In this document: piece after piece, positions 8,509-64,000 of the stretch
How positions within the stretch are numbered: position 1 is the stretch's first letter
Layout: every line of letters begins with the position of its first letter
Sequence record: PV577657
DNA: 64,000 nt
Reading direction: 5' to 3' (one strand)
From: Escherichia phage vB_EcoS_MM-1
Translations under genes and position numbers: made by a program
The notes under the pieces: model-generated
The model's database searches: none
What the model saw: only the letters and a program-made list of their open reading frames with translations
Told to the model about the DNA's origin: nothing

Positions 8509-8537
8509 TTGCTTAATCCTATAATTCTTGATATAAT
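8509..8537 (+). promoter_or_regulatory. sigma70-type early promoter
   Basis: TTGCTT, 17 nt, TATAAT. Confidence 0.6.
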
Positions 8538-8594
8538 ATTCTCATAGTTTGAAAGAACTATTCTGTTTAATTCTTAATTAAGGAAATATAAAAT

Positions 8595-9005: not shown

Positions 9006-9041
9006 TTTTTAGATAAATCCACCAACAAAAGGAACACAGTT

Positions 9042-9338: not shown

Positions 9339-9348
9339 GAAACCAATT

Positions 9349-9371
9349 AGCCCCTATATGGGGCTTTTTGT
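9349..9371 (+). terminator. rho-independent terminator
   Basis: AGCCCC-tata-GGGGCT followed by TTTTT. Confidence 0.7.
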
Positions 9372-9388
9372 GTATTTGGGATATGTAA

Positions 9389-9697
9389 ATGAGCGAACAG
9401 GTAAATCAAAACTATGAAGGACACGTTGATGACCAGTCCATCATACTTTGGGAGAAGGAGGGAGAACAAGTAAGATTAACAGTATCTGAATTTCGTGGGA
9501 ATCTATACATGGGTATTCGTTACTGGCTTCTTGATATTAATGATGAGTGGTTTCCAACGAAATCTGGCTTCTCTTTTCCTTACACCCTAGAAACAACATC
9601 ACAGCTTTTCTATGCGTTTACACAGATTCTTAGCGAATCTGAGGTTTTACATGAAGTACAGAAACGAGCTGAAGAACTCAAAGCCAAGAATGCCTAG
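9389..9697 (+). CDS. hypothetical protein
   Basis: ORF track. Confidence 0.55.
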   Translation: MSEQVNQNYEGHVDDQSIILWEKEGEQVRLTVSEFRGNLYMGIRYWLLDINDEWFPTKSGFSFPYTLETTSQLFYAFTQILSESEVLHEVQKRAEELKAKNA

Positions 9698-9713
9698 TTC
9701 TTGGCTTTTTCTT
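9683..9713 (+). terminator. rho-independent terminator overlapping the stop codon
   Basis: GCCAAGAA-tgcctag-TTCTTGGC then TTTTT. Confidence 0.65.
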
Positions 9714-9724
9714 TATAAATGTAC

Positions 9725-9753
9725 TTGCTTTCAACTCAGTTTTGTTATATAAT
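9725..9753 (+). promoter_or_regulatory. sigma70-type early promoter
   Basis: TTGCTT, 17 nt, TATAAT, then ATTTATATAAATTAATGAGAGGG. Confidence 0.6.
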
Positions 9754-9783
9754 ATTTATATAAATTAATGAGAGGGTTGCAAA

Positions 9784-10056
9784 GTGAAAAAGATAAGTAT
9801 AAGTACACTTAAACCTTTCCCGTACATCGGACAGCCTCTTATACTTATGTGGGAGGAGAAGATTAATGGGGAAAAGTATACTAAAACTAGAAGTGGGTAT
9901 AAGCTGACTTCACTTCATTACGAAAAAGAAGTATTAGTAGCTGAAATATACTCTCCGTTGTCAGATAGGCTAGTAAAAACTACATATTTGCATCGTTGCA
10001 AAAATTATACATGGCACGGATCCACTAGACAACCCTCATACTGTGAGGCAGAATAA
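9784..10056 (+). CDS. hypothetical protein (GTG start)
   Basis: ORF track. Confidence 0.45.
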   Translation: MKKISISTLKPFPYIGQPLILMWEEKINGEKYTKTRSGYKLTSLHYEKEVLVAEIYSPLSDRLVKTTYLHRCKNYTWHGSTRQPSYCEAE

Positions 10057-11028
10057 ATGACCAATGTAAAAGACTTTATTAAACGCTGTCAAGAAGCATA
10101 TTATCAAGGTATGTCTTTAATCTCTGACGAAGAATATGATCGTCTGATTAAAAGATTTCCGTTAGAAGAAGAGATCGGGCCTAAGGGCGATATTCCACAT
10201 CTGTATCGTATGTATTCTTTACAGAAAGTTTATTATAATCGTGGAGATAAACCCCCGTTTAACCCATTAGGTCAGGTAGAAACTGATAAGTTAGATGGTT
10301 GTGCAATTTCTCTGTTATATATTAATGGCGAATTTGTTCAAGCACTAACTCGTGGTAACGGTATTCTAGGGAATGATGTCACAAGCAACGTAAGATTGCT
10401 GAACATCCCTAAAAAGATTTCCCAAAAAGTACCTACTCAAATCACTGGTGAAGTTCTAATTACAAAAGAAGTAGAAAATAAACGTAACTTTGCCTCTGGT
10501 GCTATTAACCTCAAAGATAGTGATGATTTTGTACAACGTATCGGAGAAGGTGGTTTAATCTTCGTTGCATATGGTATCCAGTGTTCTGCTGAATCTGTAG
10601 GTATTACAGAAGCATATTTAAAAGATATGCTTTGGCTGGAGAATGAGAACTTCTTAACAGTTGTTAATGTGCGTTCTTTCTTTAAATGGATTCCGACGGA
10701 CGGTAAAGTTGTTCGTATTAATGATAACAACAAATTCTTCCGTGAAGGCTGGACTAATAAATTCCCTCGTGGAGCATTCGCTATTAAAGAGGATGAAGAA
10801 GGCGAGATTACAACTCTTACTAAAGTTGAATGGCAGGTAGGAGCTTCTGGTAAAGTAACTCCAGTTGGTTATTTCGAACCGGTAATTATTGATGATGCTA
10901 CAATTGTTAAAGCGACTCTTAATAACGTTGATTATATTAACTCTCTTGATCTAGAGATCGGTTGCCAGATTCGAGTGATTCGTGCTGGTGGTGTAATCCC
11001 GTGCATAGTAGAGCGAGTATATGATTAA
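10057..11028 (+). CDS. NAD-dependent DNA ligase, adenylation and OB-fold part (subunit A of a split ligase)
   Basis: KxDG adenylation motif (KLDGCA), TRGNGILGNDVT, OB-fold end IRAGGVIPCIVERV. Confidence 0.85.
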   Translation: MTNVKDFIKRCQEAYYQGMSLISDEEYDRLIKRFPLEEEIGPKGDIPHLYRMYSLQKVYYNRGDKPPFNPLGQVETDKLDGCAISLLYINGEFVQALTRGNGILGNDVTSNVRLLNIPKKISQKVPTQITGEVLITKEVENKRNFASGAINLKDSDDFVQRIGEGGLIFVAYGIQCSAESVGITEAYLKDMLWLENENFLTVVNVRSFFKWIPTDGKVVRINDNNKFFREGWTNKFPRGAFAIKEDEEGEITTLTKVEWQVGASGKVTPVGYFEPVIIDDATIVKATLNNVDYINSLDLEIGCQIRVIRAGGVIPCIVERVYD

Positions 11029-22883: not shown

Positions 22884-24702
22884 GACACTAAAATTTAGTA
22901 ACGTTATGTCTTACGGTAAGGACATCGTAATTCATTTCGACAAGAATCCAGTTACTCAACTAATTGGTGGCAATGGGCTAGGGAAATCCACCATCGCTAC
23001 GGTTATCGAGGAATTGTTTTATAACAAGAACTCACGGGGTATTAAGAAGGATGCTCTGTTCTCTTGGTCTTCTCCGAAAAAAGAGTATGATATGCACGCT
23101 TACTTCTCAAAAGATGAAGATGAGTATGAATTGCATAAAGTAGTTAAATCAACTGCTAAAGTAACCCTTATTAAGAATGGAGAAGATATTAGTGGACACA
23201 CGGCGACCCAAACATACAAGATGATTGAAGAAATTATGGGTGGTGACTTCCAAACATTCACCAAACTTATTTATCAATCAGTGGGTTCTAATCTAGACTT
23301 TCTAAAAGCAACAGATGCAACACGTAAGGCTTTTCTTGTCAACTTGTTCAATCAAGAACAGTACAAAGAAATGTCAGAAACTATTAAGGCTGACCGTAAA
23401 GAAATAGCAAATACCTTAAATAATTTGCAGGGCCAAATGGCTGTAATTACGAAAATTCTTAATGGAAAGAATAACTTGGGAACTTTGCAGGAACCTGTAG
23501 AAGTACCGGAGTTTGATGAAGAGCCGTTAGCACAAGAACTTACTGAATCGAAAATTAAGGCGGCATTAGCCAAGTCTCAAGAGGCTAATATTACTAAATT
23601 GCGTAATTTGGACAAAGCTGTACAAGTTGCCGAACAATCTTTCGAGCCTTTCAAAAATTTACCCGCGCCCACTGACCAAAATGAAGAGATCTCGAGTGTT
23701 ACGCGTGACCTAACGATTGTGACCTCACGTGCGAGCGAAGTTAAGAAACGTTATCAGAAGTTCAAGCAAGAGGCTTCAAATACTGAATGTCCTACCTGTG
23801 GTACTCATCTGGATACAACTGCTGCGCAAAAAGCAATGGATATGGCTAGAACAGAATATGATCCTCTGTTCAAAGAGAAGCAATCTCTTGAAGCTAAGCT
23901 AGAACAGTTGAAGAAGGAACAACTTGAGTACGTTGCGTATACTAGAGCAAAGGATGCTTTGGATAAGGCAGTGGTAGCTAGAGACGAGTTCAAAAATTCA
24001 ATGAGTGATGCTTCTTTTGAAGAACTCAATGTGCAAATCCTACAGGTGCAAATCCGACAATTAGAACAGGAAATAGCTGATGGACGTTCTAAGGTTGCAA
24101 TTGCTAAAGAACATAATGCAAATATTGAGTTAGCCAATGCAAAATATAAGGCGAAACTAGAACAGATTGAGAAAGCTGAGGCAGAAATGTCTGAGATTAC
24201 ATCCAAACTGGATGGAGTATCAGAAGCTGTTGCTGATCTCGATATTCTGATTGCTGCATTAAAGAATCTAGTAGGATATAAGCTAGAGCATAGTGTGAAA
24301 GTATTTGAAGAACTTATCAATAAATACCTTTCTATTATGACTGGCGGTAAGTTCGCACTTGGATTTGAACTTGATGAAACGAAATTGCAAGTAGTAATCT
24401 TCAATGATGGAAACCGTACCAGTATGGAGAATTGCTCTACTGGTCAGCAAAGTCGAATCAACCTAGCAACTCTGTTAGCTATTCGAATGCTACTAACATC
24501 TATTAGTAAAGTTAATATTAATCTTCTATTCCTTGATGAAGTAATTAGCTTTATTGATACTAAAGGACTTGACACCCTTGTTGAATTATTAAATGAGGAA
24601 GAAAGTCTAAATTCTATCATTGTTTCTCATGGGCATACGCATCCATTAGCCCATAAGATTACTGTCAAAAAAGATGCAGAAGGATTTTCCTACTTAGAAT
24701 AA
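22864..24702 (+). CDS. SbcC/Rad50-like ATPase
   Basis: Walker A GGNGLGKST, zinc-hook CPTCGT, Walker B LLFLDEV, long coiled-coil middle; ATG 22864 gives the typical MSKITIKTLKF N-terminus. Confidence 0.8.
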   Translation: MSKITIKTLKFSNVMSYGKDIVIHFDKNPVTQLIGGNGLGKSTIATVIEELFYNKNSRGIKKDALFSWSSPKKEYDMHAYFSKDEDEYELHKVVKSTAKVTLIKNGEDISGHTATQTYKMIEEIMGGDFQTFTKLIYQSVGSNLDFLKATDATRKAFLVNLFNQEQYKEMSETIKADRKEIANTLNNLQGQMAVITKILNGKNNLGTLQEPVEVPEFDEEPLAQELTESKIKAALAKSQEANITKLRNLDKAVQVAEQSFEPFKNLPAPTDQNEEISSVTRDLTIVTSRASEVKKRYQKFKQEASNTECPTCGTHLDTTAAQKAMDMARTEYDPLFKEKQSLEAKLEQLKKEQLEYVAYTRAKDALDKAVVARDEFKNSMSDASFEELNVQILQVQIRQLEQEIADGRSKVAIAKEHNANIELANAKYKAKLEQIEKAEAEMSEITSKLDGVSEAVADLDILIAALKNLVGYKLEHSVKVFEELINKYLSIMTGGKFALGFELDETKLQVVIFNDGNRTSMENCSTGQQSRINLATLLAIRMLLTSISKVNINLLFLDEVISFIDTKGLDTLVELLNEEESLNSIIVSHGHTHPLAHKITVKKDAEGFSYLE

Positions 24703-49952: not shown

Positions 49953-50434
49953 TACTTCTTACCTCCAGTAGCTAGGGAAGTAATTAAGTCCATGTAGTTT
50001 TGATCCCCAGCTCCAGCAATAATATTATTCTGGATATTGGTCTGATTAGCAGGAGCACGGACGGCAGCTTTAGCTTTTTCTAGCTCCACCATCATTTTCA
50101 TCTCTTCCATCTTCATTTTATGTGCCTTCCAGAGAATATCCATAATATCCTGGTCAGAACCCATGCCAGTTTCTTCCAGTTCCTCCAGCTTACGTTTAAT
50201 AACTTCATCTAGAACACCGAACAAACGATCTCTGTTACGGAATCCACTCTCCATAAAAATATCGTTCAAGTAATTCTTAACTTCACTACGATTCATAATA
50301 TCTCGGAAAGCAATTTCAGACATTCCAAGACTACGTGCGGCAGAAGGCACATCGCTACCGCACTGTAAATAAGCTTCAATCACATCCATCCCTTCAGGGG
50401 ACATAAGATCTGGTACTAATATATCATTTGCCAT
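49952..50434 (-). CDS. terminase small subunit candidate (HTH)
   Basis: 160 aa immediately upstream of the large subunit; HTH-like [17 protein letters not shown]. Confidence 0.5.
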
Positions 50435-53551: not shown

Positions 53552-53716
53552 TTTGACTTTTGCCAAATTTCATAAGATTACACATGGAGGTGTGTCCAGT
53601 GGGTCGGGGGAGAATACTTAGTCTGCTAACCGCCACCCCCCGTTACTATTATCATGGTAATTGTTTCACCCTGCAATTAAAATGGTTGCAGGGTGAAACA
53701 ATTTCAACTTTAATTA

Positions 53717-54493
53717 TTACGCAACTTTTAATTTCTCGATATATTGTTGCGGGCTGCAACTATATTCTGCGCGTTCTTCCTCGGTCATACCTTCCCAACA
53801 TAATTTCAAACGATCAGCTAGGAATTGATAATCATTATCATCATCGAGGGATTCATCAATAAAGGTTTCACCTATCAATGCCACGCCGATTGATAGAATA
53901 TCGTTAACGGCTTGCGCGTCCAGCGTTTTAAATCCGTATGATGCCGCCGCTGATAGTACACCCTTATGATCATCAATCATTGTAAAATCAGCGTTCGGAT
54001 ATAACTGTTTAAATAATTCAAAATAATAAGATTTATAAACTGCGTCTTTGCTGTGGTATATCTCGCTAACTTTATCAGCCTCAAAATATTTATGCAGTGT
54101 ATCGCGAGAAAACACGCGGATATTACTATCACCACGACCGCGCAAGCCTTGTTTGCGCAAATAATAATAGTCCGACTTGCTCATTAGTCGAGCGGTACAA
54201 ATAATGTTTAAAGTATTTGCGTCATTCATGCACTGGCGCATATATGTAACAAGGGGCAATAAAGTATCTTGCATTATTAAATCATGTTTGCAGGCTTCAT
54301 TTTTATACTTATTTAAATCTAAATTGCCCTCGCTATCAAAGCAAGGCGCTACACGATGGAAAGAATTAATGATAGTGCCGTCCAGATCCCAAATCATGAC
54401 GCGGGAAATATGCGGGAAATTACGGGTAATATTCATTTTAACTTGATTCATTTTGTTACGTTCTCCATTAAAGGGATTTAGTTTATCCAGCAT
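53717..54493 (-). CDS. dmp: HAD-family 5'-deoxyribonucleotidase-like protein (Dmp-like)
   Basis: HAD motif I MIWDLDGTIINS; first gene of the pre-early-like block. Confidence 0.65.
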   Translation of the reverse strand: MLDKLNPFNGERNKMNQVKMNITRNFPHISRVMIWDLDGTIINSFHRVAPCFDSEGNLDLNKYKNEACKHDLIMQDTLLPLVTYMRQCMNDANTLNIICTARLMSKSDYYYLRKQGLRGRGDSNIRVFSRDTLHKYFEADKVSEIYHSKDAVYKSYYFELFKQLYPNADFTMIDDHKGVLSAAASYGFKTLDAQAVNDILSIGVALIGETFIDESLDDDNDYQFLADRLKLCWEGMTEEERAEYSCSPQQYIEKLKVA

Positions 54494-54531
54494 TACCCGC
54501 TATTTATAAGCGGGTAATAATAAATCAACTA

Positions 54532-54924
54532 TTAAAGACCATAAGCCAACGCATCAGCGATAAAACTAACATCCTCACCGGATACGCTAGAACGAATCCC
54601 CGCGCAGGTGTATACCTTTGCGCTCGCTAGCTGATCATCAAGGCAAGCGGGGCAAGGCGCGACAACTGCAAAGGCTAGACCAGATTTTACCGCGTCAATA
54701 ATGATTGTTTCTTGTTTCATCGTGTCAACATAAACGCCTTTTGCTTTAATATGGCTGGTTAGTTTGCCTTGCGTATAGGCAAAGGTAGTAACCTGTAAAG
54801 CGTCATTGAAATCTAATAATTCATCAATAACGTGCCCCGCCTCGACGTGGTAACGTTCACCATTAGAATAAACCAGAACAATGGAAGACTGAGCGCGATC
54901 GAATGGAATATTTTGCTTTTTCAT
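54532..54924 (-). CDS. hypothetical pre-early protein
   Basis: ORF track; terminator hairpin downstream. Confidence 0.5.
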   Translation of the reverse strand: MKKQNIPFDRAQSSIVLVYSNGERYHVEAGHVIDELLDFNDALQVTTFAYTQGKLTSHIKAKGVYVDTMKQETIIIDAVKSGLAFAVVAPCPACLDDQLASAKVYTCAGIRSSVSGEDVSFIADALAYGL

Positions 54925-54963
54925 ACTTATAAAACTCCAATTAGTTTAATATAGGGATTTAAT

Positions 54964-55254
54964 TTATTTGATAATAATCTGCATCTGGTACGGCGTTAAT
55001 TCACCGTTTACGGGTAAATTATTATCGCTTAGCCACTCATAAAAAGCGCCATCATCATCAAAAGGAACAACATCATTATCACGATAATCGATGGAAATAA
55101 TGCCATCCGTATTAGTTTTGGCGGCTAGGATAGGCCCAAAGCTGTAAACTTTATCGGATTCCATTTCATCCGGTGAGATGAATGCTTTTTCGTCCAATGT
55201 TTTGGGTAATGTAACTTTCATTTTTTGACTCCTGTAATAGCGGCTATATTTCAA
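54964..55254 (-). CDS. hypothetical pre-early protein
   Basis: ORF track. Confidence 0.5.
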   Translation of the reverse strand: MKYSRYYRSQKMKVTLPKTLDEKAFISPDEMESDKVYSFGPILAAKTNTDGIISIDYRDNDVVPFDDDGAFYEWLSDNNLPVNGELTPYQMQIIIK

Positions 55255-55274
55255 GCCGCTAGGGGATAATTTAA

Positions 55275-56939
55275 TTACGCGAAAAATTTACCGTTTTTAA
55301 AGTCAATCAAAGTGCGCTGACCGTTTGCATAGGTAATTAAATGCGTTTGCGTCCAGCTTGACGCGCCAACGTTGTAACCCATATCCAGACTACCAGCTAC
55401 GCCAGCGGTATAAACGCCACCGTAAATGCTAGCGGTATGGGTGTGTCCCGTGTTTAGCTTGCCCAATTTCTTAAACTGTTTAGGATTGCCACGACTGCCG
55501 TTAATGCCGTTGTGACCGTGTACGCCGCACTCAATGCCTGCAATCTTGAAAGATTGATCAGTGGTTAGGAAAATGGCGTTAAACTCACAACCTGCAACCT
55601 TGCGCAGCGCATAATCTAGCACGTTAAAAGTATCATCATGATCACTGATCGCCGCGTAAATTGCAGCATTCAGGCGGTGATATAGTTCGGCGTTGGCTGG
55701 ATCGTCTTTGATGTTAGCATTACGATCATCTAACCAGCGGGATAGCGCCAAATCGTGATTAGATTCAACAATGATTGTTTGAGAGAAATCACGTTCCATT
55801 GATTCCAGCACGCGCCCCGTATCGATAAGATCATCCAGAACTTTATCACGTCCAGCGGCATACTGTTTTGCTAGGAATACACCGGATGCACGGTTATGAT
55901 GATTGCGCGATGTAAAATCATGCACGTCATGGATAAACTGATATTTTGGTTTAAGAATATCAAGCAAGCTATTTTCGCCAGCCCATGACGCAACGGCACA
56001 ATCATCATCTAATTTTTCCGCATGAATATCGCCATACTGCAAGCCTAAAACATGCCCCGATGTTTCATAGCATCCGGCAGGAGTAGCGCAAACATTCAGA
56101 TCATAAAACACCCCGCTTTCGTCCATTGTTTCAAGCTGGCGAACAAAAAATTCCCCGTCCTCGTCGAACTCAACAATCAGCGCGCCGAAGTTATGCAGAG
56201 CTTCCGCTTTTTGTCCTGCTTTCTGCTGAATATAGTTTTTAAGCGTTGCCGTTCCGGTTGAATACATACGGCGCACTACTTCACCTTTTAAAGCTGGCAC
56301 GCTTTCAGCGGTGATTTTAGCGTGACCAATTGCCAGCCCCTCAATATTGAGCGCCGTTGCAGTTTCTGCAAATCCTGAAAGCGGGTAATCTGCGGTTGGC
56401 AAAACATTAATTTCAGCCATGAAAGCAAAACGGCGGTTATTTAAAAACACGTTTTTGCTGCAAATATATTTATCAAATGCGGGATCGTATTTGATACCGT
56501 CTGCACCTTCTTCATTCTGGAAGCCATTTTTATTATAAATATACTTAGAAACAAGCAAATCAGCACCGATATATTCAGCGAATTTTTCCAGACTTGCTAA
56601 AAAGTTTTTATGCGGGAAAGTATTATTTTGAATCGACGTAATAATAAAGCGTTTACCCTGTTTTACTTCCCATTGCTCAACCGTACTAGAAACAATTCCC
56701 GCCGCTTCTGGGCGCTCATCGTTTTTAATGGCTTTTGCTACTTTTGCCGCTTTCGGTTTAGCTGGTTTATTTGCTTCCAGCCAGTCGCAGATAGCGGTTG
56801 AATGCTTCGTTGTATCGTAGACCGCTTTTGATATATCGTCGCAGACTTCCAGTTTAGTAGCGCGCAGACGTTTACCATAGAAATTAAAGTCAGCGGCCAT
56901 TTTCAGGATAACGGTTTGTTTTTCTGCGGAAATAATCAT
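55275..56939 (-). CDS. A1: A1-like pre-early protein, metallophosphatase fold
   Basis: 554 aa (T5 A1 is 556); phosphoesterase motifs GDIHAE and GHTHTASI. Confidence 0.7.
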   Translation of the reverse strand: MIISAEKQTVILKMAADFNFYGKRLRATKLEVCDDISKAVYDTTKHSTAICDWLEANKPAKPKAAKVAKAIKNDERPEAAGIVSSTVEQWEVKQGKRFIITSIQNNTFPHKNFLASLEKFAEYIGADLLVSKYIYNKNGFQNEEGADGIKYDPAFDKYICSKNVFLNNRRFAFMAEINVLPTADYPLSGFAETATALNIEGLAIGHAKITAESVPALKGEVVRRMYSTGTATLKNYIQQKAGQKAEALHNFGALIVEFDEDGEFFVRQLETMDESGVFYDLNVCATPAGCYETSGHVLGLQYGDIHAEKLDDDCAVASWAGENSLLDILKPKYQFIHDVHDFTSRNHHNRASGVFLAKQYAAGRDKVLDDLIDTGRVLESMERDFSQTIIVESNHDLALSRWLDDRNANIKDDPANAELYHRLNAAIYAAISDHDDTFNVLDYALRKVAGCEFNAIFLTTDQSFKIAGIECGVHGHNGINGSRGNPKQFKKLGKLNTGHTHTASIYGGVYTAGVAGSLDMGYNVGASSWTQTHLITYANGQRTLIDFKNGKFFA

Positions 56940-57029
56940 AGTAATAAAACTCCATTAAAGGGATTAGATTAATAACGGCAATATTGCCAAATATAACGCC
57001 TCAAATAATAGGCGTTATAATTTGCAACA

Positions 57030-57227
57030 TTAATTTAAAGGCACTAGGCTAGAACTAACACCACAAGCAACGGCAGCGATAAAACAAAGCAAGCCCAAAC
57101 GTTTTGCTAATTTAGATTTACGTTTAAAATAATATGAATCTAAATCATTTTGAAAATAAGCGAACAATAACGAGGGCGCCATAATAAACAAGCCTAGAAT
57201 TAATGATTCAGTAGGATAAAAGATCAT
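57030..57227 (-). CDS. small hydrophobic protein
   Basis: ORF track; two hydrophobic segments. Confidence 0.4.
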   Translation of the reverse strand: MIFYPTESLILGLFIMAPSLLFAYFQNDLDSYYFKRKSKLAKRLGLLCFIAAVACGVSSSLVPLN

Positions 57228-57284
57228 TTTAAAAACTCCTGATTTAAGGGAAGAAAATAACTATCGCTAAACAGTTATATTATT

Positions 57285-57315
57285 GCCCCCTCACTAAAAA
57301 AAGGGGGGCAAGGTA
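57285..57315 (-). terminator. hairpin terminator after the A2-like gene
   Basis: GCCCCCT-cactaaaaaa-AGGGGGGC. Confidence 0.55.
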
Positions 57316-57321
57316 TAACTA

Positions 57322-57729
57322 TTATTCGCCTGCGGCTTGTTTTACTTCCTCGGCAACGCCTAACAATTGCGCTACTGCGTCCAGCGTTTCAAGTTTTGCA
57401 CTTTCAAGGCTTGCCAGATCATCGGCATCTTTGATAATGCCGGAATCGATAGCGTGTTTTGCAATAACGCGTACATAATGAGCTTTGCGGATTGAACTAC
57501 CGCCGCCAACTTTGCGGGGCTTACCGCTTTTTTGATATGCTTTTGCGCTGGTCAATTTTGACCGAACGGATACGGGAGAAGCCGCGCCTACTGCTTTTGC
57601 AATCTCTTTCAGGCCGTCGCTATTTGCGAAATCTAAACCGTTTTCATTAATTAACTGTTGATACATGGAAACAGCTTTCTGAGTGTTTTCTTCATTCCAT
57701 GCGAATTTTGCGGTTTTAGCGTTAGTCAT
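57322..57729 (-). CDS. A2: A2-like pre-early DNA-binding protein
   Basis: 135 aa, basic centre (KSGKPRKVGGGSSIRKAH), adjacent to A1-like gene. Confidence 0.55.
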   Translation of the reverse strand: MTNAKTAKFAWNEENTQKAVSMYQQLINENGLDFANSDGLKEIAKAVGAASPVSVRSKLTSAKAYQKSGKPRKVGGGSSIRKAHYVRVIAKHAIDSGIIKDADDLASLESAKLETLDAVAQLLGVAEEVKQAAGE

Positions 57730-57825
57730 GATGTAACTCCTATTAGTTTAATTTAAGGGATTAGATTAACTTAATGTTAATCGTTATATCCCCCTGAAAT
57801 AAGGGGATATAAAGTTAACACTAAT

Positions 57826-58077
57826 TTACAATACAGCTTCCCATTTTTCGTTGCGTTGAACAACCTTTACAACATCGCCGGATTTAACGCGAACGCTAAA
57901 AACGGGCTTGCCGTTGTTACTACGTTCATTTTCAGCGTATACCGCGTCGATTGTATCGAACGGCATAAGCGCCGCACCTTTAATACGTTCGGCCTTTCCG
58001 GTTAATTCATCCGTTTTAGTAACGAAAGGAATGAAGACGAATTGACCAACTTTCGGCGCGGTAATAACGTTTTGCAT
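57826..58077 (-). CDS. hypothetical pre-early protein
   Basis: ORF track; hairpin TATATCCCC-N9-GGGGATATA downstream. Confidence 0.5.
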   Translation of the reverse strand: MQNVITAPKVGQFVFIPFVTKTDELTGKAERIKGAALMPFDTIDAVYAENERSNNGKPVFSVRVKSGDVVKVVQRNEKWEAVL

Positions 58078-58307
58078 AATATAAACTCCTAGTTATTTGG
58101 GGATTGTTCCGCATTACCTGCTAGAAAGTAACAGCAGGTAATAAGTAACAATCCGCTCGCCAATATAATCAATTTTAAAGAACTCCACGTAGGCCGCTAT
58201 ATCCCGTTAGGGGGCGGGATGCATTATGGTAAGCACCGACCGTCAAATTTTATCAAGTTATCGCTCTTATCGAACTGGGTACATCTTAAAACCTATCGGC
58301 TAGGTTG

Positions 58308-58511
58308 TCAAACAATTTTTTGCAATTTTTTATGATTTTCTTTTAGGTCAATCATAATATTTCGCCAGATCATTTCCAGACCTTGCTGGCGACCTTTCTT
58401 GTACTGCGTGAATCTATATCTTACTGATCTTTGAGCTACTGTCAACAAATTTTTTGTTTTGCTATCTAGTGCCTTAATAGGCTTGCCAGTGATCAAAAGC
58501 GTTTGTTTCAT
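58308..58511 (-). CDS. small basic protein
   Basis: RBS AAGGAA on the minus strand before ATG. Confidence 0.45.
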   Translation of the reverse strand: MKQTLLITGKPIKALDSKTKNLLTVAQRSVRYRFTQYKKGRQQGLEMIWRNIMIDLKENHKKLQKIV

Positions 58512-58956
58512 ATCGTCGATTCCTTATAATGAATAAGTTTACCGCCGATAGGCTTTAAGATGTACCCAATTTTTAAAGAGCGTGGCGGTAAACTTCCCGC
58601 CGTGTAGTTCGTCATTGCCGCCCTACGAGATAAATAATAGGGGATTCCCGAAAATGGCGCAACCTTATTTTTGTAAAGAAATGTAAAGGTAAAACTCACC
58701 GGACACCGTGCGGCGACGGCCTAAAATTAAAAGAAACGGGCGCGCGAATACCACAAAATAAAGCAAATAGGCAAGTAATTTTTTCATTTATATTTGCTTT
58801 GCCCTACTTGACAAAATCTAAAAAGCTCGTGGTAACGATAAACGGCTTATCCCCTTATGATGGGATGGCTAAAAACTTTATTGCGTTCTGGAGCGTTTTA
58901 GGCGCATTCTAGCCTTGTTGATAACTTATCCCCAAAAGCAAAAATGAAATTTTCCT

Positions 58957-58993
58957 AGTTATCCACTTGACTTTTATTTTCCAGTGGATAACT
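58957..58993. promoter_or_regulatory. inverted pair of DnaA-box-like sites
   Basis: AGTTATCCACT ... AGTGGATAACT flanking TGACTTTTATTTTCC. Confidence 0.5.
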
Positions 58994-59255
58994 ACTTATT
59001 TTATGAAATAAATTAATTGACTTTTATTTGTTAGTATGCATCGGAAAGATAGCAGACTAATAATTGCTAGAATGATAATCATGCTGGTGGATTGTAACGA
59101 CCTGAATTATTAGCAGACTATTAATCACGGAAAAATCTCATTAGCCAACTAACTATTTCATGATATATAATATACATATAAATTAATGAGAAATAATAAC
59201 TATAAGAAATCATCTAGCTAAGTGAGAACCACTATCATTTAAGTTATACACAAAG

Positions 59256-59264
59256 TTATCCACA
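59256..59264 (+). promoter_or_regulatory. consensus DnaA box
   Basis: TTATCCACA exact 9-mer. Confidence 0.5.
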
Positions 59265-59333
59265 GCACTTTTTGACTTGACACGATAGGCGGCGATATAA
59301 GGACTTTTACACAGACTTATCTACAGGTTATTC

Positions 59334-59353
59334 CACTGTATAAATATACAGGG
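59334..59353. promoter_or_regulatory. LexA (SOS) box-like palindrome
   Basis: cACTGTATAAATATACAGgg = CTGT-N8-ACAG with AT-rich core. Confidence 0.55.
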
Positions 59354-59618
59354 TAAAAAGGTAGTGTTAACAACTGCAATCAATTTTAAGCGGCTTAAAT
59401 CGCATTCTAACGAGCTAAACGCTGCGGGGTAATATTAAAGTAAAGCCTTAATGCGTCGCCCTGGTGGCTTCGCCGTGGTTTGCTCTTTATTGCACCGCTG
59501 CGCGGTTAGCATAAAAATAGGCGCTAGGCAAGGAAAATAAAAAGGTAAAATAATATTTGCCTATGCTAGAAATTTACCTTTATCATTCACTCACCGATTA
59601 ACGAGGGAGGCCGAACAA

Positions 59619-60398
59619 ATGAGGCTTTATAAACCTGATAATGCCACCGTTTTAAAAGGTGCATTGCGCAACCTGCTGGATGGTAGCAAGTCAACCAGCA
59701 TTAAACATTTTATTAACAAGATTGAAACTATTCATCAAAACTTTTTTGATGATTATGACGCTTATGATATGGATAGTTTTCTACCCTTATATAGACAAGG
59801 GGCAACGCTAGTTTTATATAATCGGGATTGCCATATCTTTACAGGCAGGGGAGCGGGGCCGGATACCGATTTTATTGTTGCGCAGGGTAATAATATTGTT
59901 GCGTATCATAGCAATTCAGGCCGTCAATCATTTAATATAAATAGTTTTGAGCTTATTGGACTTGATCTGATAAATGGACTTTCTAGCATTGAGGGATTTT
60001 TAGATGTTATCTGGAAGTATTTACCCGCTGGATGGCATAAGCCGGATAACGACGGATCTCAATATACCGGTATAATGGCTTTTGATGGCGACGGTAATTT
60101 TTTGTTACCACGGGAGCTATACCCATATATTTATGATGGGGATATAGAAAGCGCTGGTTTTTCTTTCTGGAAAGATGAAGATCAGATTATTGACAGCGTA
60201 GAAAACCATGCTGTAAATTCTAACACTCAAAGCGTTAACACTCAAACTACTGAAAACAAAGGAAAAAACACTATGACCAAGATTGCTAACATCGTTGCCG
60301 CTAATAAATCCGCCGTTGTAAATGCTGCAAAACTGGAAGCGGGTAAAATTGCACTGACTCAAATCACGAAAGTAGCGGCTAAAAAGCACCGTTCATGA
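59619..60398 (+). CDS. hypothetical protein
   Basis: Strong RBS GAGGGAGG; 259 aa. Confidence 0.6.
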   Translation: MRLYKPDNATVLKGALRNLLDGSKSTSIKHFINKIETIHQNFFDDYDAYDMDSFLPLYRQGATLVLYNRDCHIFTGRGAGPDTDFIVAQGNNIVAYHSNSGRQSFNINSFELIGLDLINGLSSIEGFLDVIWKYLPAGWHKPDNDGSQYTGIMAFDGDGNFLLPRELYPYIYDGDIESAGFSFWKDEDQIIDSVENHAVNSNTQSVNTQTTENKGKNTMTKIANIVAANKSAVVNAAKLEAGKIALTQITKVAAKKHRS

Positions 60399-60628
60399 TT
60401 AAAGGCTATATTGATACGCCGATTGGTCGAGTAGTGATTGCTAACCTGCTAAGTGTAGCGGTTGACCAGTACGCACCGACTAACCAGAAAGCGAAAGCGG
60501 TAGCAGGGGCGGCTATGGAAGCGGCAATGCTGGAAATGGTGCAAAGTTTTAACATCGCTGAAATGATTGATGAAATGGTGAAAGGTATTGATATTTCTAC
60601 TTTTACCACTAGCACCGAAATCGAGTAA
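60395..60628 (+). CDS. hypothetical protein
   Basis: ATGA overlap with previous gene; terminator hairpin AGTGGGGA-ttatt-TCCCCACT after stop. Confidence 0.5.
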   Translation: MIKGYIDTPIGRVVIANLLSVAVDQYAPTNQKAKAVAGAAMEAAMLEMVQSFNIAEMIDEMVKGIDISTFTTSTEIE

Positions 60629-60693
60629 TAATATTTAGTGGGGATTATTTCCCCACTTTACTACTCCCTTGTTAATTAATAGGAGGCTAACTA

Positions 60694-61188
60694 ATGGCTG
60701 AGGAAAAATACGGCTTCTCGCTAGGAGAAGTGAGCACGGCTAAACATGATATGATCATTTTAGTCGATTGTCATACTGGCTATTGCGGAGAAGGGAACAC
60801 CGAAGAATACTTTGTTCCTGCTGGTACGGATCTGGACGCTTTCGCTCATGAAATGGCTATTGATAATGCTTCTCGTTTTGGTAGCGATGGCTATGAAGAC
60901 GAAGAAACTGGCGAATGGTATGAAAATGAAAACGTATATGCAAGCCTTTATCATTATCAGCTAAGTAAATCCGGCACATATGTAAACGGCGGCGATCCTA
61001 TTAATTCCGTCATGAAATTAATTATTAAATATGGTGGCGTCGAGATAATTGATAACAAAGCGGTAATATACGCAAACCGATTAAAACAGCTTGTTTATAT
61101 TCCTGATAGTACCCGATGGGATGAATACGCTGTTTTGCATGACGAATTGAAACGATGTTTCAATATTGAATCCCTGCAAGTAGTCTAA
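60694..61188 (+). CDS. hypothetical acidic protein
   Basis: Strong RBS AGGAGG; 164 aa. Confidence 0.6.
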   Translation: MAEEKYGFSLGEVSTAKHDMIILVDCHTGYCGEGNTEEYFVPAGTDLDAFAHEMAIDNASRFGSDGYEDEETGEWYENENVYASLYHYQLSKSGTYVNGGDPINSVMKLIIKYGGVEIIDNKAVIYANRLKQLVYIPDSTRWDEYAVLHDELKRCFNIESLQVV

Positions 61189-61293
61189 TGTAAAGTTTTG
61201 TAAAGGTCGCCTTTTATGGTGGCCTTTTTTGTTATAATGCTTTTACACCAAAACGGTGGATTGAAAATTTTCCCAAAAATTTGGAGGCTTAAA

Positions 61294-61524
61294 ATGGTTG
61301 CTTATTCTTCTGCTAGTCATCTGTTTACCGCGCAAGGCTGGGTATCTAATCGTGCTGTCATCTATGAAATGGTGCAGGAGTTCGGCATTGCTAAAACTTA
61401 TAATACCATTCAGGAACTATATAACGCCGATAAAATCGATCAGCAAACGGCTGGCTTTTTACTGGATACCCTGAAAGCTGAACATTGCACTAAAAAACAA
61501 GCCGCTAAAATTGTTTTAATGTAA
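61294..61524 (+). CDS. hypothetical protein
   Basis: ATG 61294 with GGAGG RBS (track start 61216); terminator CGGGGCG-ttacttt-CGCCCCG downstream. Confidence 0.5.
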   Translation: MVAYSSASHLFTAQGWVSNRAVIYEMVQEFGIAKTYNTIQELYNADKIDQQTAGFLLDTLKAEHCTKKQAAKIVLM

Positions 61525-61573
61525 TTAATAACGGGGCGTTACTTTCGCCCCGATAACTAGGAGGCTATCACAA

Positions 61574-61723
61574 ATGGTTATTTTTCGATCTATTTTAGCG
61601 GGTATCTTGGGCGCTATTTTATCGTTATTTGCGATAGCTTTCGGCGTTCACGCTGTTATTATTGGCGCTGGCATTGCTGCGTTTTCTTATCTGCTGGGCT
61701 GCATGACTAGTAAAGGAGAATAA
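61574..61723 (+). CDS. small two-helix hydrophobic protein (49 aa)
   Basis: RBS AGGAGG; Gly/Ala-rich TM segments; below ORF-track length cutoff. Confidence 0.45.
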   Translation: MVIFRSILAGILGAILSLFAIAFGVHAVIIGAGIAAFSYLLGCMTSKGE

Positions 61724-61725
61724 AA

Positions 61726-61938
61726 ATGATCCGCAACGTTTCCCTTGCACGTTCGAAAGGCTTTAAGCTGGTGGATGTTAACACGTTCGAGTGGGAAGAT
61801 TGTAAAATCGAATATGTAGCACGTAACAAAAATGCCTTTCGTGTTACCGAGAAAAAATTTGATAAGCGCGGCAACGTGATAGCTGAAACAGTTAAACATT
61901 TTGCCACCTTTTACGCTGCTTTCCGTGGGGTATTATGA
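61726..61938 (+). CDS. hypothetical protein
   Basis: RBS AAAGGAGAA. Confidence 0.5.
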   Translation: MIRNVSLARSKGFKLVDVNTFEWEDCKIEYVARNKNAFRVTEKKFDKRGNVIAETVKHFATFYAAFRGVL

Positions 61939-62057
61939 TTCAGCAAATTAAAACGGCTTTTCGTTTTTGGGGCGTCCTGCCTTCAATTGGTTTTATTCTG
62001 ATAATTATTAGTCAGCTAATGATCATCGGCGGAACTATTTGGGAGCTATGCAAATGA
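61935..62057 (+). CDS. small hydrophobic protein (40 aa)
   Basis: ATGA overlaps at both ends. Confidence 0.35.
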   Translation: MIQQIKTAFRFWGVLPSIGFILIIISQLMIIGGTIWELCK

Positions 62058-62398
62058 TAATTTATGAAGGCAATCGCTTTGTTGCTAATTGCCGTCCGGC
62101 ATTATTAGCAAACTATTTAAACCAGCTTTCCCCAGCTTATAAGGGCGTTATTAATATTTATGAGGGAAAGGCGCATTATAAAATTAATGCGGTCGTTGCC
62201 CGTGAACTAGCATTTCAATTTTTGACCTTTGCATCTTGTGACGTTCAGGTTATGGGTGAGGCATTAATCGCGGAAAATGAAGAGGATTTTATTAATATTT
62301 TCCGTAAGGTATGCACTGAGCGCTTGATAATGAAAGGCGCGTATATTCAATCAACTGCGGAAAGTATTGAAACAGCATTTCGAAAGGTGGCGCAATGA
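62054..62398 (+). CDS. hypothetical protein
   Basis: ATG 62054 (track start TTG 62039); 114 aa. Confidence 0.5.
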   Translation: MIIYEGNRFVANCRPALLANYLNQLSPAYKGVINIYEGKAHYKINAVVARELAFQFLTFASCDVQVMGEALIAENEEDFINIFRKVCTERLIMKGAYIQSTAESIETAFRKVAQ

Positions 62399-62498
62399 GA
62401 TTATATATTTTCGTTGGTAATGTTAAGGCAGCTAATGATTCCGCTGGTGGCGACAACGTTCGCCACCATTGGCAAAAATATATTTACTAGGAGTTATT

Positions 62499-62606
62499 AT
62501 GTCTGGTTTAATGTTTACCTTATTAGTAGTTTATAGCATAATTACGGCAGGAATAGTAACTTATGTTACTAGTAAAATTTGGCCGGGAATATATGGTAAT
62601 TTTTAA
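62499..62606 (+). CDS. small hydrophobic protein (35 aa)
   Basis: RBS AGGAG; single TM helix. Confidence 0.35.
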   Translation: MSGLMFTLLVVYSIITAGIVTYVTSKIWPGIYGNF

Positions 62607-62621
62607 TAACGGAGCGTTATT

Positions 62622-62825
62622 ATGAGCAATAAAATTATTGTAACCAAAATCAGTACAATGGTTGATGTTTTTTACGTGCCAGATACGCCGGAGAATCGGC
62701 AAGCGGTCGAGCGGGGCGAATATGATAAAGTGATTTATGATCACGATGGTTATTATCAGTATTTGGTGGATTCCTACGGGGAGGAGGAGAAGATCACGCA
62801 TCGACTACCGGAGGAGGGTTTATGA
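62622..62825 (+). CDS. hypothetical acidic protein
   Basis: RBS ACGGAG; 67 aa. Confidence 0.5.
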   Translation: MSNKIIVTKISTMVDVFYVPDTPENRQAVERGEYDKVIYDHDGYYQYLVDSYGEEEKITHRLPEEGL

Positions 62826-62980
62826 AACGATGGTTTAATCACTGGTACAAGCGGTTTTTAGTACGCCGTCGCAAGTCTAGGCATCAAGATGAGTGGCGGG
62901 AGTGGGCAAAGCGTAACGGTTGCCCGCTACTATAATAATCACGGGGCGCAACTATCGGGAAGTGCCCCCAATTCTCAAAT

Positions 62981-63001
62981 GAGAATCATTCTCATTTGAC
63001 C
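62981..63001. repeat. perfect 21-bp palindrome
   Basis: AAATGAGAAT-C-ATTCTCATTT; partial copies recur at the ends of the 67-bp repeats. Confidence 0.8.
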
Positions 63002-63192
63002 GCGCCCGCGATGGTTAGCCTGCTAATGATTAGGGTGTTACGTGTCGCCTTGTGTGATCGTTAGCGAGCTAACTAATTTTCAAGCCTCCTCCAATTTTGC
63101 CCTTGTTTTAGTATCTCCACCAAAATTAAACGCGTTAGAATGCGATCTAGGACGTTTTAACGCTATATTAGAATTATTCACTGCGTAGGAAT

Positions 63193-63212
63193 ACTGTATA
63201 TTTATACAGTAG
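63193..63212. promoter_or_regulatory. LexA (SOS) box-like palindrome
   Basis: TACTGTATATTTATACAGTA. Confidence 0.6.
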
Positions 63213-63219
63213 GATAAGC

Positions 63220-63302
63220 TGTGGATAAGTCTGTTAATAACACCCCAAAATGGCTAGGATTCTGTCAAGTCAAATCGTGCTGTTAATAAGTCTGTGGATA
63301 AC
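63220..63302. promoter_or_regulatory. two consensus DnaA boxes within an inverted motif pair
   Basis: TGTGGATAA at 63220-63228 and 63294-63302, each linked to GTCTGTTAATAA. Confidence 0.5.
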
Positions 63303-63317
63303 TTAAATAATAGTGTT

Positions 63318-63488
63318 TCTCACTTCCGTTCTTAAATACGAATCACTATCATTTGCGTTCCACTTTCTAAATGAGAATCATTCTGCTTTTTAAAGGAGAA
63401 TCGTTTCACTTCCTGAATAATTCTCACTTCCATTCTTAAATGCGAATTATTATCATTCTCATTCCGCTTTTTAAATGAGAATCATTCT
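63318..63488. repeat. two about 67-bp direct repeats, each ending in the AAATGAGAATCATTCT half-palindrome
   Basis: Units at 63318-63384 and 63422-63488 are near-identical. Confidence 0.75.
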
Positions 63489-63511
63489 CATTATCATTCG
63501 CATTCAGGCGA

Positions 63512-63529
63512 GCAGGGCAATTGCCCTGC
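63512..63529. repeat. perfect 18-bp palindrome
   Basis: GCAGGGCAA-TTGCCCTGC. Confidence 0.7.
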
Positions 63530-63535
63530 GCTTTT

Positions 63536-63758
63536 GTGCAAATCCGACATTGCTCCACGGGTGTTACGTGCGGGCGTGTATGTGCGAATCCGACAATTTT
63601 TGGTAGTGTGCAAATCCGACCCGAAAAATTTTTATAGTGTGCAAATCCGACAATGAATTTTCCTAAAAACTCCAGCAATCACGAACTGCGTTCGAATCCT
63701 GTGGGGTATGTGCAAATCCGACACGGTTTTTCTAGGATTAAGATGTGCGAATCCGACA
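63536..63758 (+). repeat. array of six direct copies of GTGC(A/G)AATCCGAC(A), irregularly spaced, each followed by a T-rich tract
   Basis: Copies at 63536, 63582, 63608, 63638, 63710 and 63745. Confidence 0.8.
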
Positions 63759-64000
63759 AGATTTTTGTGACTTCGATTGGAGGGTGTGTGATTGTGTGAG
63801 TTTGGGGAGAAGTTGAGAGAGCGAGAAAAATTTGAGGGAACTGCGGGAGGGGCGCATGTTTGGTGCGGAGCACCTGATTTGCGGGGATTTTGGGGAAGAG
63901 TTGAGAAGATTTGGGTTAATTTGAGATTAGTGCAGAAAAAGTAAAATTTTATTAGCTAAATGGAGCAAAATAGCTTGACAAGTGAAAATTCTTGTGGCTC

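What the first reader, a model, noticed from the sequence alone, without database searches (positions are those of the whole stretch)
63536..63758. Six-copy array of GTGC(A/G)AATCCGACA with T-rich tails
Six direct copies of a 14-nt motif occur within 225 bp at irregular 26-72 bp spacing, each followed by a T-rich tract, in a region with no credible ORF. The spacing and absence of cas genes argue against CRISPR. This fits a reiterated protein-binding site array, plausibly part of an injection-stop / terminal-repeat boundary, a partition-like centromere or an iteron-type origin.
Basis: seen in the sequence. Interest (0 to 1): 0.5.

Follow-up and report, generated by a model that had tools for sequence, protein, structure and literature searches.

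The report
T5 "DRD" repeats at terminal-repeat boundary
The six repeats are real and are the already catalogued "DRD" direct repeats of phage T5's injection-stop region, a deeply conserved array of probable protein-binding sites beside the right end of the terminal repeat, whose binding protein and function are still unknown.

Summary
Observation confirmed: six same-strand copies of GTGC(A/G)AATCCGAC at 63536-63758, against 0.38 matches expected by chance.

The window is the right-hand 64 kb of a T5-like phage genome (99.9% identical to ECOP18). Its last base is the last base of the 10.4-kb right terminal repeat, so the array lies 242-464 bp from the physical DNA end.

T5 has the same six copies at 9753-9975, inside its annotated "injection stop signal". 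The literature names them direct repeat DRD but assigns no function.

New here:
- The element is a sharply bounded, asymmetric 15-mer.
- Spacers, spacing and copy number vary while the core does not.
- All 70 copies examined, from nine phages in three subfamilies (down to Vibrio phages with 31% A1 identity), share one orientation.
- The copies straddle the right boundary of the terminal repeat. None lie at the left boundary.
- A conserved pair sits inside gene D13.
- Host genomes have no such arrays.

Best reading: binding sites for a conserved phage DNA-binding protein acting where DNA transfer pauses and restarts. A2 is the leading but unproven candidate. Packaging-site and iteron-origin readings remain open. 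CRISPR, centromere, promoter and nick-signal readings are rejected.

The feature is known and its mechanism is open, so interest is moderate.

The parts
63536..63549 (+). DRD copy 1 (GTGCAAATCCGACA), 4 nt right of the nick-site hairpin
   Evidence: equals T5 9753
63582..63595 (+). DRD copy 2 (GTGCGAATCCGACA)
   Evidence: equals T5 9799
63608..63621 (+). DRD copy 3 (GTGCAAATCCGACC)
   Evidence: equals T5 9825
63639..63652 (+). DRD copy 4 (GTGCAAATCCGACA)
   Evidence: equals T5 9856
63710..63723 (+). DRD copy 5 (GTGCAAATCCGACA)
   Evidence: equals T5 9937
63745..63758 (+). DRD copy 6 (GTGCGAATCCGACA)
   Evidence: equals T5 9962
63512..63531 (+). GC hairpin GCAGGGCAATTGCCCTGC followed by GC. It is terminator-like on the + strand. 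It is the equivalent of the T5 major nick site, with the - strand nicked between 63531 and 63532.
   Evidence: T5 annotation; terminator-like scan; nick contexts
63760..63970 (+). G-rich spacer almost free of C, between the last copy and the DNA end (GC skew +0.6 to +0.7)
   Evidence: measured on the 99.9%-identical ECOP18 locus; sequence
63975..64000 (+). Right terminal-repeat boundary element: TTGACA, then 20 nt, then the end (...GTGGCTC|). The window's last base is the last base of the repeat.
   Evidence: same boundary annotated in T5, MM-2 and EscoHU1; parallel contexts in My1 and Dax
53593..64000 (.). Right terminal repeat, 10,408 bp. It carries dmp, A1, A2 and the other pre-early genes, plus the noncoding repeat region.
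   Evidence: left boundary from blastn of T5 1-1380; right boundary
24031..24059 (+). Tandem pair of DRD copies (13/14 and exact) inside the D13 (SbcC-like) gene, encoding NVQILQVQIRQ
57322..57729 (-). A2, an essential pre-early DNA-binding protein and the leading candidate reader of the motif (inferred, not shown)
   Evidence: phrog_1725; alignments; model; literature
49970..50428 (-). Terminase small subunit, the alternative candidate reader
   Evidence: phrog_3802; alignment
63192..63301 (+). Neighbouring host-factor-like sites in the same noncoding region: a perfect SOS-box-like palindrome at 63192-63211, and DnaA boxes TGTGGATAA at 63220-63228 and 63293-63301
   Evidence: the DnaA boxes are described in Davison 2020

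Best explanation
The array is a set of reiterated, oriented binding sites (aT-GTGC-R-AAT-CCGA-Y-a) for a conserved sequence-specific DNA-binding protein. It sits at the junction between first-step and second-step DNA transfer of a T5-like phage. The proposed mechanism is as follows. After the left terminal repeat has entered the cell and transfer has paused, the newly made pre-early protein A2, with its partner A1, binds these sites as they are exposed at the entry point. That binding is what lets the rest of the genome come in. The copy in this window is the duplicate in the right terminal repeat. Shown: the motif, its copy layout and single orientation, its deep conservation, its position in the annotated injection-stop region and beside the repeat boundary, and its absence as arrays from host genomes. 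Inferred: that a protein binds it. Hypothesis: that the protein is A2, and that the role is restart (or arrest) of DNA transfer.
For: 1. T5 has the same six copies at 9753-9975, inside its annotated iss (9140-10149). They lie just to the right of the about 9618 shear point quoted by Davison.
2. The conservation pattern is that of a binding site. Over 70 copies from nine phages the core is invariant, while flanks, spacing (15-81 nt within a cluster) and copy number (3-7 on the inner side) vary.
3. The 13-mer is unchanged in Tequintavirus, Epseptimavirus, the Klebsiella and Enterobacter relatives, Pectobacterium My1 and Vibrio Dax.
4. The array is specific to T5-like phages. A two-copy pattern found only T5-like contigs in the viral collection, and no host arrays among 185,579 bacterial and archaeal species genomes.
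5. A viable T5 mutant lacks genes hegG to 017 and several other pre-early genes. [quoted passage not shown] A2 is described as a DNA-binding protein that may associate with viral DNA.
6. A2's basic blocks VSVRSKL...YQK and IRKAHYVR are conserved in all motif-bearing lineages despite 38-56% overall identity. They carry non-conservative changes (Q66V, Y85V, R87F) only in the Proteus phage, which has lost the array.
7. The A2 model (pLDDT 84.5) has two small helical domains joined by a basic linker. Its weak structural neighbours are Myb, homeodomain and transposase HTH folds, which read asymmetric sites.
Against: No binding data exist. The covariation signal for A2 (11 Proteus-specific against 13 Dax-specific changes) is based on small counts, and TerS shows the same pattern (12 against 16). 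The Proteus phage keeps A1 and A2 but has only one or two degenerate copies, so the array is not indispensable to every A1/A2 phage. Copies outside the repeat and inside D13 are not predicted by a pure injection role. The structural matches for A2 are not significant (best E = 0.63). The exact arrest point in T5 has never been mapped to the nucleotide.
Confidence: 0.35

Rival explanations
1. The array is a packaging or terminus-formation signal, like cosB or pacL/pacR. It recruits the terminase, or an accessory protein, to the concatemer junction. The right-end cut is then made between the two groups of copies, and packaging proceeds leftwards into the terminal repeat.
For: In T5, ECOP18, Stitch and EscoHU1 the copies lie at -466 to -254 and at +87 and +122 relative to the repeat's right boundary. 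In My1 they lie at -497 to -364 and +247 to +431. In Dax they lie at -331 to -62 and +30 and +153. There are no copies at the left boundary. All copies share one orientation, which fits a polar process. T5 injects its left end first, so by the usual last-in-first-out rule the right end should be packaged first, which puts the inner cluster on the side that enters the head first (inference from general phage biology). Arrays of direct repeats next to the cut site are the norm for lambda cosB and SPP1 pac (my own knowledge).
Against: The distance from the copies to the cut is not fixed across subfamilies: 49 to 351 bp on the inner side and 30 to 247 bp on the outer side. The predicted recognition helix of TerS differs among T5, My1 and Dax, although the motif is identical. 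The cuts have their own conserved local elements, TTGAC(A) on the right and RTTACACATGGA on the left. The boundary would fall inside the array zone fairly often by position alone, because the array fills about 40% of the 1.8-kb noncoding gap. The D13 pair is not explained.
Confidence: 0.25
2. The array is a set of iterons of a phage replication origin. A phage initiator binds the direct repeats next to the DnaA boxes and A/T-rich spacers and opens the DNA.
For: The array has direct repeats in one orientation with irregular spacing. Conserved DnaA boxes lie 235-315 bp to the left, and the spacers are A/T-rich. T5 encodes a UL9-like SF2 helicase that has been proposed as an initiator. [quoted passage not shown] The D13 pair could be a secondary origin, in line with the 'multiple origins' reported from electron microscopy.
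Against: No initiator gene lies next to the array. The helicase resembles UL9 only in the helicase core. In KKP_3711 the helicase is only 34% identical, yet the motif is unchanged. Electron-microscopy mapping, as cited by Davison, placed the origins near the genome centre. The strand bias could equally reflect rolling-circle replication. The unit is 15 bp, shorter than typical 17-22 bp iterons.
Confidence: 0.13
3. The copies are sites for a conserved host protein that holds the incoming DNA and causes the pause, in the same way that Davison proposes for DnaA at the nearby DnaA boxes.
For: The motif is invariant across phages whose own proteins are only 31-46% identical and whose hosts range from Vibrio to Escherichia. 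The neighbouring conserved elements, the DnaA and SOS-like boxes, are host-factor sites. Only host proteins are present when transfer first stops.
Against: No paired copies occur in any Enterobacterales or Vibrio genome. I could not match the motif to any host factor consensus I know (my own knowledge, not a database test). The Proteus phages have lost the array although their host has the same core proteins.
Confidence: 0.12
4. The repeats are residue of duplication with no function, or they belong to another known signal such as the nick site, a promoter or a terminator.
For: Copy 1 lies 4 nt from the T5 7.9% nick site. MM-2 lacks three copies and is still a viable phage.
Against: The core is conserved while the spacers have diverged beyond BLAST detection, across three subfamilies. 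The other three mapped nick sites have no DRD beside them, with a best match of 8/13. There are no promoter-like sites in the array, and only the upstream hairpin looks like a terminator.
Confidence: 0.03

Closest known systems
Direct repeat DRD of T5 'Repeat Region 3', the injection stop signal region (Heusterspreute 1987; Wang 2005; Davison 2015 and 2020)
   Same: Same motif, same six copies, and the same order relative to the SOS-like box, DnaA boxes, long direct repeats, nick hairpin and repeat end. The window's array is the orthologue, in the right terminal repeat, of T5 9753-9975.
   Different: Nothing essential differs. Spacing between copies 4 and 5 is 71 nt instead of 81, and between copies 5 and 6 it is 35 nt instead of 25. 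The literature counts nine copies by including those beyond the repeat end, and assigns no function.
Terminase recognition arrays (lambda cosB R1-R3; SPP1 pacL/pacR)
   Same: Several short direct repeats with irregular spacing that flank a terminase cut site and occur at only one of the two genome-end boundaries.
   Different: The geometry relative to the cut is not conserved between subfamilies, and the TerS helix-turn-helix does not co-vary with the motif. Binding has not been tested.
Iteron-type replication origins (P1 oriR, F oriS, pSC101, lambda ori)
   Same: Same-orientation direct repeats next to DnaA boxes and A/T-rich DNA.
   Different: The unit is 15 bp, no initiator gene is adjacent, the array is split by the repeat boundary, and the candidate initiator helicase does not track the motif.
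T7 SRL/SRR short-repeat arrays beside its terminal repetition (my own knowledge)
   Same: Arrays of a short oriented repeat next to the direct terminal repeat of a lytic phage, long known and still without a proven function.
   Different: The sequence is unrelated. The T7 arrays lie outside the repeat on both sides, whereas here the copies straddle only the right boundary.

Membership tests
T5 DRD repeats / iss Repeat Region 3 | Motif GTGCRAATCCGAC repeated about nine times at T5 9.75-10.5 kb | tested here: met
   T5 has copies at 9753, 9799, 9825, 9856, 9937, 9962, 10306, 10341 and 10478. The window's six copies align one to one with the first six.
T5 DRD repeats / iss Repeat Region 3 | Lies in the noncoding end of the terminal repeat, to the right of the DnaA boxes and long direct repeats, and inside the annotated iss | tested here: met
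   T5 annotates the iss at 9140-10149 and the repeat end at 10219. The window has the same order of elements and ends at the same boundary.
T5 DRD repeats / iss Repeat Region 3 | Acts in cis to stop first-step transfer | not testable with these tools
   The iss has never been mapped to the nucleotide. The literature still calls the mechanism unknown.
CRISPR array | Repeats of 23-50 nt at a regular period, with unique spacers of similar length | tested here: not met
   The unit is 15 nt and the periods are 46, 26, 31, 71 and 35 nt.
CRISPR array | cas genes or a leader nearby | tested here: not met
   The neighbours are T5 pre-early genes, and Pfam found no Cas domains among the ten terminal-repeat proteins scanned.
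Iteron-type origin | Several same-orientation direct repeats with DnaA boxes and A/T-rich DNA nearby | tested here: met
   Six copies on one strand, with TGTGGATAA boxes at 63220 and 63293.
Iteron-type origin | A cognate initiator encoded nearby, or one that co-varies with the repeats | tested here: not met
   Pfam found no Rep-like domain among the ten terminal-repeat proteins scanned. The UL9-like helicase lies about 57 kb away and is only 34% identical in KKP_3711, which has the same motif.
Iteron-type origin | Replication starts there | not testable with these tools
   There is only indirect literature: unidirectional replication from one end against origins near the centre.
Terminase recognition site (cos/pac type) | Next to the terminase cut that creates a genome end | tested here: met
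   The copies flank the right repeat boundary in T5-like phages, My1 and Dax.
Terminase recognition site (cos/pac type) | Fixed geometry between the binding sites and the cut | tested here: inconclusive
   The geometry is fixed within Markadamsvirinae (244 bp inner, 87 bp outer) but differs in My1 (351 and 247 bp) and in Dax (49 and 30 bp).
Terminase recognition site (cos/pac type) | Bound by the small terminase subunit | not testable with these tools
   The only indirect evidence is that the TerS HTH helix varies while the motif does not, which counts weakly against.
Partition centromere (parS type) | Palindromic or boxed sites with adjacent parA/parB genes on a replicon that must segregate | tested here: not met
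   The motif is asymmetric. The phage is lytic, its repeat region found no match in the plasmid collection, and Pfam found no ParB domain among the ten terminal-repeat proteins scanned.
T5 nick-site signal | Present at all mapped major nicks | tested here: not met
   DRD is next to the 7.9% nick only. At the 18.5, 32.6 and 64.8% nicks the best match is 7-8 of 13.

The most novel reading that the evidence does not exclude
The DRD array is the specific loading site for the essential A2/A1 proteins (or for another conserved phage protein). It physically controls the pause-and-restart of T5 DNA transfer and, because it straddles the repeat boundary, possibly also where the genome end is cut. That would give the fifty-year-old 'injection stop signal' a defined 15-bp recognition element shared by the Demerecviridae lineages examined, with the exception of Proteus Novosibvirus.
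Probability: 0.3. Interest if true: 0.65.

Novelty: already known. Interest (0 to 1): 0.35.

Why it matters
Two-step DNA injection by T5 has been studied since the 1960s. The cis-acting stop signal and the role of A1 and A2 are still unexplained, and 2026 papers say so. Recent attention has gone to the DnaA boxes. This analysis shows that the DRD motif is at least as deeply conserved. It persists from Escherichia phages to Vibrio phages. It has the signature of a protein-binding site, is strictly oriented, and brackets the terminal-repeat boundary. That makes it a concrete, cheap experimental handle: a 15-bp element for gel shifts, pull-downs, ChIP and scrambling mutants. These experiments could separate the injection, packaging and origin roles. 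The repeat itself is not a discovery, because it is already catalogued in T5.

Tried and rejected
- **Plasmid or partition reading:** the region has no match in the plasmid collection.
- **Promoter or terminator reading:** there are no promoter-like sites in the array. Only the hairpin to its left is terminator-like.
- **Nick-signal reading:** the other T5 nicks have no DRD beside them.
- **Host regulon reading:** no paired motifs occur in Enterobacterales or Vibrio genomes. Of the 14 hits, 12 are unrelated tandem repeats and 2 are T5-like contigs binned into MAGs.
- **UL9-type origin-binding idea:** UL9's site contains TTCGCAC, which resembles the reverse complement of the DRD variant. However, the homology is limited to the helicase core, and the helicase does not track the motif.
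- **Synonymous-site test on the D13 copies:** no power. 4 of 9 third positions vary, against a background of 44%.
- **Four-taxon covariation test:** it raised both A2 and TerS above the controls and could not separate them.
- **Pfam on A2 and nine other terminal-repeat proteins:** no DNA-binding family found.
- **PDB sequence search and fold search for A2:** nothing significant.
- **Davison 2015 and Bourguignon 1976:** not held in the library.
- **Recombitron paper:** the text does not say which T5 strand is favoured.

Full report
**1. What is there.**
Positions 63536-63758 hold six + strand copies of GTGC(A/G)AATCCGAC, with start-to-start spacing of 46, 26, 31, 71 and 35 nt. Allowing two mismatches, the window has 8 matches against 0.38 expected, and no shuffle reaches 8. 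The two extra matches form a tandem pair at 24031-24059 inside a gene. Only short ORFs of 40-80 aa overlap the array.

**2. Where the window comes from.**
The region is 99.9% identical to Escherichia phage ECOP18, and 452 T5-like phage records match it. No plasmid record matches.

T5's curated record annotates the left terminal repeat as 1-10219. It marks an 'injection stop signal (iss)' at 9140-10149 and a major nick at 9748/9749. T5 has the same six copies at 9753-9975. It has more copies at 10306, 10341, 10478 and 12154.

The window's last bases...GTGGCTC, are exactly where T5, MM-2 and EscoHU1 independently annotate the end of the repeat (...GTGGCTC|TAAAAACTC). T5's first 1380 bases align from window 53593 onwards. 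So the window is the right-hand 64 kb of a linear genome. Its right terminal repeat is 53593-64000, and the array lies 242-464 bp from the physical right end.

**3. What is already known.**
Davison's preprint (10.1101/866236) lists 'nine copies of direct repeat DRD' in T5 Repeat Region 3 (9194-10409), following Wang 2005 and Heusterspreute 1987. It gives them no function. Its own model rests on the DnaA boxes at 9332-9462, with the shear point at about 9618. Papers from 2026 still describe the iss as a noncoding region rich in repeats with an unknown mechanism. They describe A2 as an essential predicted DNA-binding protein that may act on viral DNA. The feature is therefore catalogued, but its function is open.

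**4. Anatomy and conservation (new here).**
A profile of 70 copies from nine phages gives a sharply bounded, asymmetric 15-mer, aT-GTGC-R-AAT-CCGA-Y-a. There is only a weak T bias at +18 to +22. Every copy has the same orientation relative to the repeat.

Relative to the right repeat boundary, the copies lie as follows:

| Phage(s) | Inner copies | Outer copies |
|---|---|---|
| T5, ECOP18, Stitch, EscoHU1 | about -466, -420, -394, -363, -285, -256 | +87, +122 |
| Pectobacterium My1 (another subfamily, A1 66% identical) | six at -497 to -364 | four at +247 to +431 |
| Vibrio phage Dax (third subfamily, A1 31%) | six at -331 to -62 | +30, +153 |

In Klebsiella SEL21 and Roth39 and in Enterobacter KKP_3711 the flanks are too diverged for BLAST. 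Even so, 8-10 copies persist in two clusters.

Copy number is flexible. MM-2 lacks copies 2-4, EscoHU1 lacks copy 5, and Stitch has a seventh. No copy lies at the left repeat boundary.

The Proteus phage M4H10_20 (Novosibvirus) keeps the surrounding architecture but has only one or two degenerate copies.

A two-copy pattern scanned across 185,579 bacterial and archaeal species genomes found no array in any Enterobacterales or Vibrio genome. It found only unrelated tandem repeats and two T5-like contigs. In the viral contig collection all 48 hits are T5-like.

An invariant core with free spacers, free spacing and free copy number is the signature of a reiterated protein-binding site. That is an inference, not a demonstration.

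**5. The copies inside D13.**
The pair at 24031-24059 lies in the SbcC-like gene D13. T5 has it at 78936-78964. The second copy is exact in 27 of 28 Markadamsvirinae loci. Third-position variability there is not clearly below background, so that test has no power. My1 lacks the pair.

A Vibrio-type locus has a 12/13 copy in a different reading frame, 27 nt from the homologous codons. That is hard to explain by protein constraint. I have no explanation for these internal sites. An exact 13-mer is expected about 0.007 times in a 111-kb genome, so chance is unlikely.

**6. What it is not.**
- It is not a CRISPR array. The unit is 15 nt and the periods are irregular.
- It is not a centromere. The motif is asymmetric, no ParB domain was found among the repeat proteins scanned, and the phage is lytic.
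- It is not a promoter array.
- It is not the nick signal. The four mapped T5 nicks share CCYGCGC|N~30 RTTACR, and only the 7.9% nick has a DRD copy, which sits in the spacer.

**7. Who might bind it.**

*Pre-early proteins.* A viable T5 mutant lacking hegG-017 and other pre-early genes leaves only A1, A2, hdi and 009.

*A2* (window 57322-57729, phrog_1725):
- It is 56, 38 and 43% identical to My1, Dax and Proteus A2.
- Its basic blocks VSVRSKL..YQK and IRKAHYVR are conserved in all motif-bearing lineages and in 28 homologues.
- Those blocks change non-conservatively only in the array-less Proteus phage (Q66V, Y85V, R87F).
- The predicted structure (pLDDT 84.5) has two helical domains joined by a basic linker.
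- Its PDB neighbours are non-significant Myb, homeodomain and transposase HTH folds.

*TerS* (49970-50428, phrog_3802) has a helix-turn-helix region that differs among T5, My1 and Dax, although the motif is identical.

*Four-taxon count.* Proteus-specific against Dax-specific changes are 11/13 for A2 and 12/16 for TerS. The controls give 28/85 (A1), 30/60 (TerL) and 12/28 (Dmp). This is suggestive for both candidates and decisive for neither.

*The UL9-like helicase* (T5.108, called 'D2' by Wong 2013) matches UL9 only in the helicase core. It is 34% identical in KKP_3711, which keeps the motif.

**8. Mechanism.**
I rank four readings.
- **(i) 0.35.** Binding sites for a conserved phage protein, most likely A2 with A1, acting where transfer pauses and restarts.
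- **(ii) 0.25.** A cosB/pac-like recognition array for the right-end cut. It is supported by the way the copies straddle the boundary in three subfamilies, by their single orientation, and by the expectation that the right end is packaged first. It is weakened by the variable distance to the cut, by the variable TerS HTH, and by the cuts having their own conserved local elements (TTGAC(A) on the right, RTTACACATGGA on the left).
- **(iii) 0.13.** Iterons of an origin. This is supported by the neighbouring DnaA boxes and by a report of unidirectional replication from one end. It is weakened by the lack of a co-varying initiator.
- **(iv) 0.12.** A host factor that causes the arrest.

These roles are not mutually exclusive, because the same DNA is both the transfer junction and the concatemer junction.

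**9. Verdict.**
The element is the known DRD repeat of T5, so its novelty is low. The value added here is the defined footprint, the strict orientation, the family-wide conservation, the bracketing of the boundary, the D13 sites and the absence of host arrays. Together these make a long-standing open question directly testable.

Noticed in passing
window 63524-63575; T5 9748, 22336, 39746, 78573: The four mapped T5 major nick sites share a longer, two-part context than the annotated NPu|GCGCN: CC(C)TGCGC|, then about 30 nt, then (G/A)TTAC(G/A)(C/T)GTG. The window's equivalent is ccctgcgc at 63524-63531 and gttacgtgcggg at 63564-63575.
   Followed up: partly
window 62980-63496 and 53826-53840: Palindromes of the TGAGAATCATTCTCA type match the Fur 7-1-7 box TGATAATNATTATCA. 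The window has 21 hits at up to 3 mismatches against 9.6 expected, and 13 of them fall in the terminal repeat. One at 53826-53840 is a perfect match. T5's receptor FhuA is Fur-regulated, so the pre-early region may sense iron or Fur.
   Followed up: partly
window 63192-63211 and 59334-59353: TACTGTATATTTATACAGTA at 63192-63211 is a perfect LexA/SOS-box-like palindrome next to the DnaA boxes. A weaker copy lies in the other repeat region of the terminal repeat. The element is conserved in T5, the Proteus phage and Vibrio phage Dax.
   Followed up: partly
window 53575-53592; My1 locus L119 5654-5671: Just outside the left boundary of the terminal repeat, the window (ATTACACATGGAGGTG|) and Pectobacterium My1 (GTTACACATGGATGGGG|) share RTTACACATGGA. 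This is a candidate left-end cut signal. Its RTTAC(A/G) core also appears in the distal half of the nick-site context.
   Followed up: no
window 63760-63970: The roughly 210 bp between the last DRD copy and the DNA end are G-rich and almost free of C on the + strand (GC skew +0.6 to +0.7). They contain internal repeats of the GATTTTGGGGAAGAGTTGAGA type. TTGACA follows, 20 nt before the end.
   Followed up: partly
window 63536-63758 (motif core): The core GTGC(A/G)AATCC differs by one base from the tRNA T-arm consensus GTTC(G/A)AATCC, and has the purine polymorphism at the same place. A 2-mismatch hit in T5 at 41440 lies in the stable-RNA/tRNA region. This may be coincidence.
   Followed up: no
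locus L012 and record PP579741 (Enterobacter phage KKP_3711) 86285-88927: This member of the Markadamsvirinae has a T5.108-type helicase only 34% identical to the window's protein. That is lower than in Vibrio phages (39-46%), which suggests replacement of this replication gene by a distant allele.
   Followed up: no
window 59619-60628: Two adjacent ORFs (259 aa and 77 aa) match consecutive parts of one Pfam family (DUF7566, profile positions 5-256 and 260-334 of 336). In this phage a single pre-early gene, the T5.011 homologue, is split or frameshifted.
   Followed up: no
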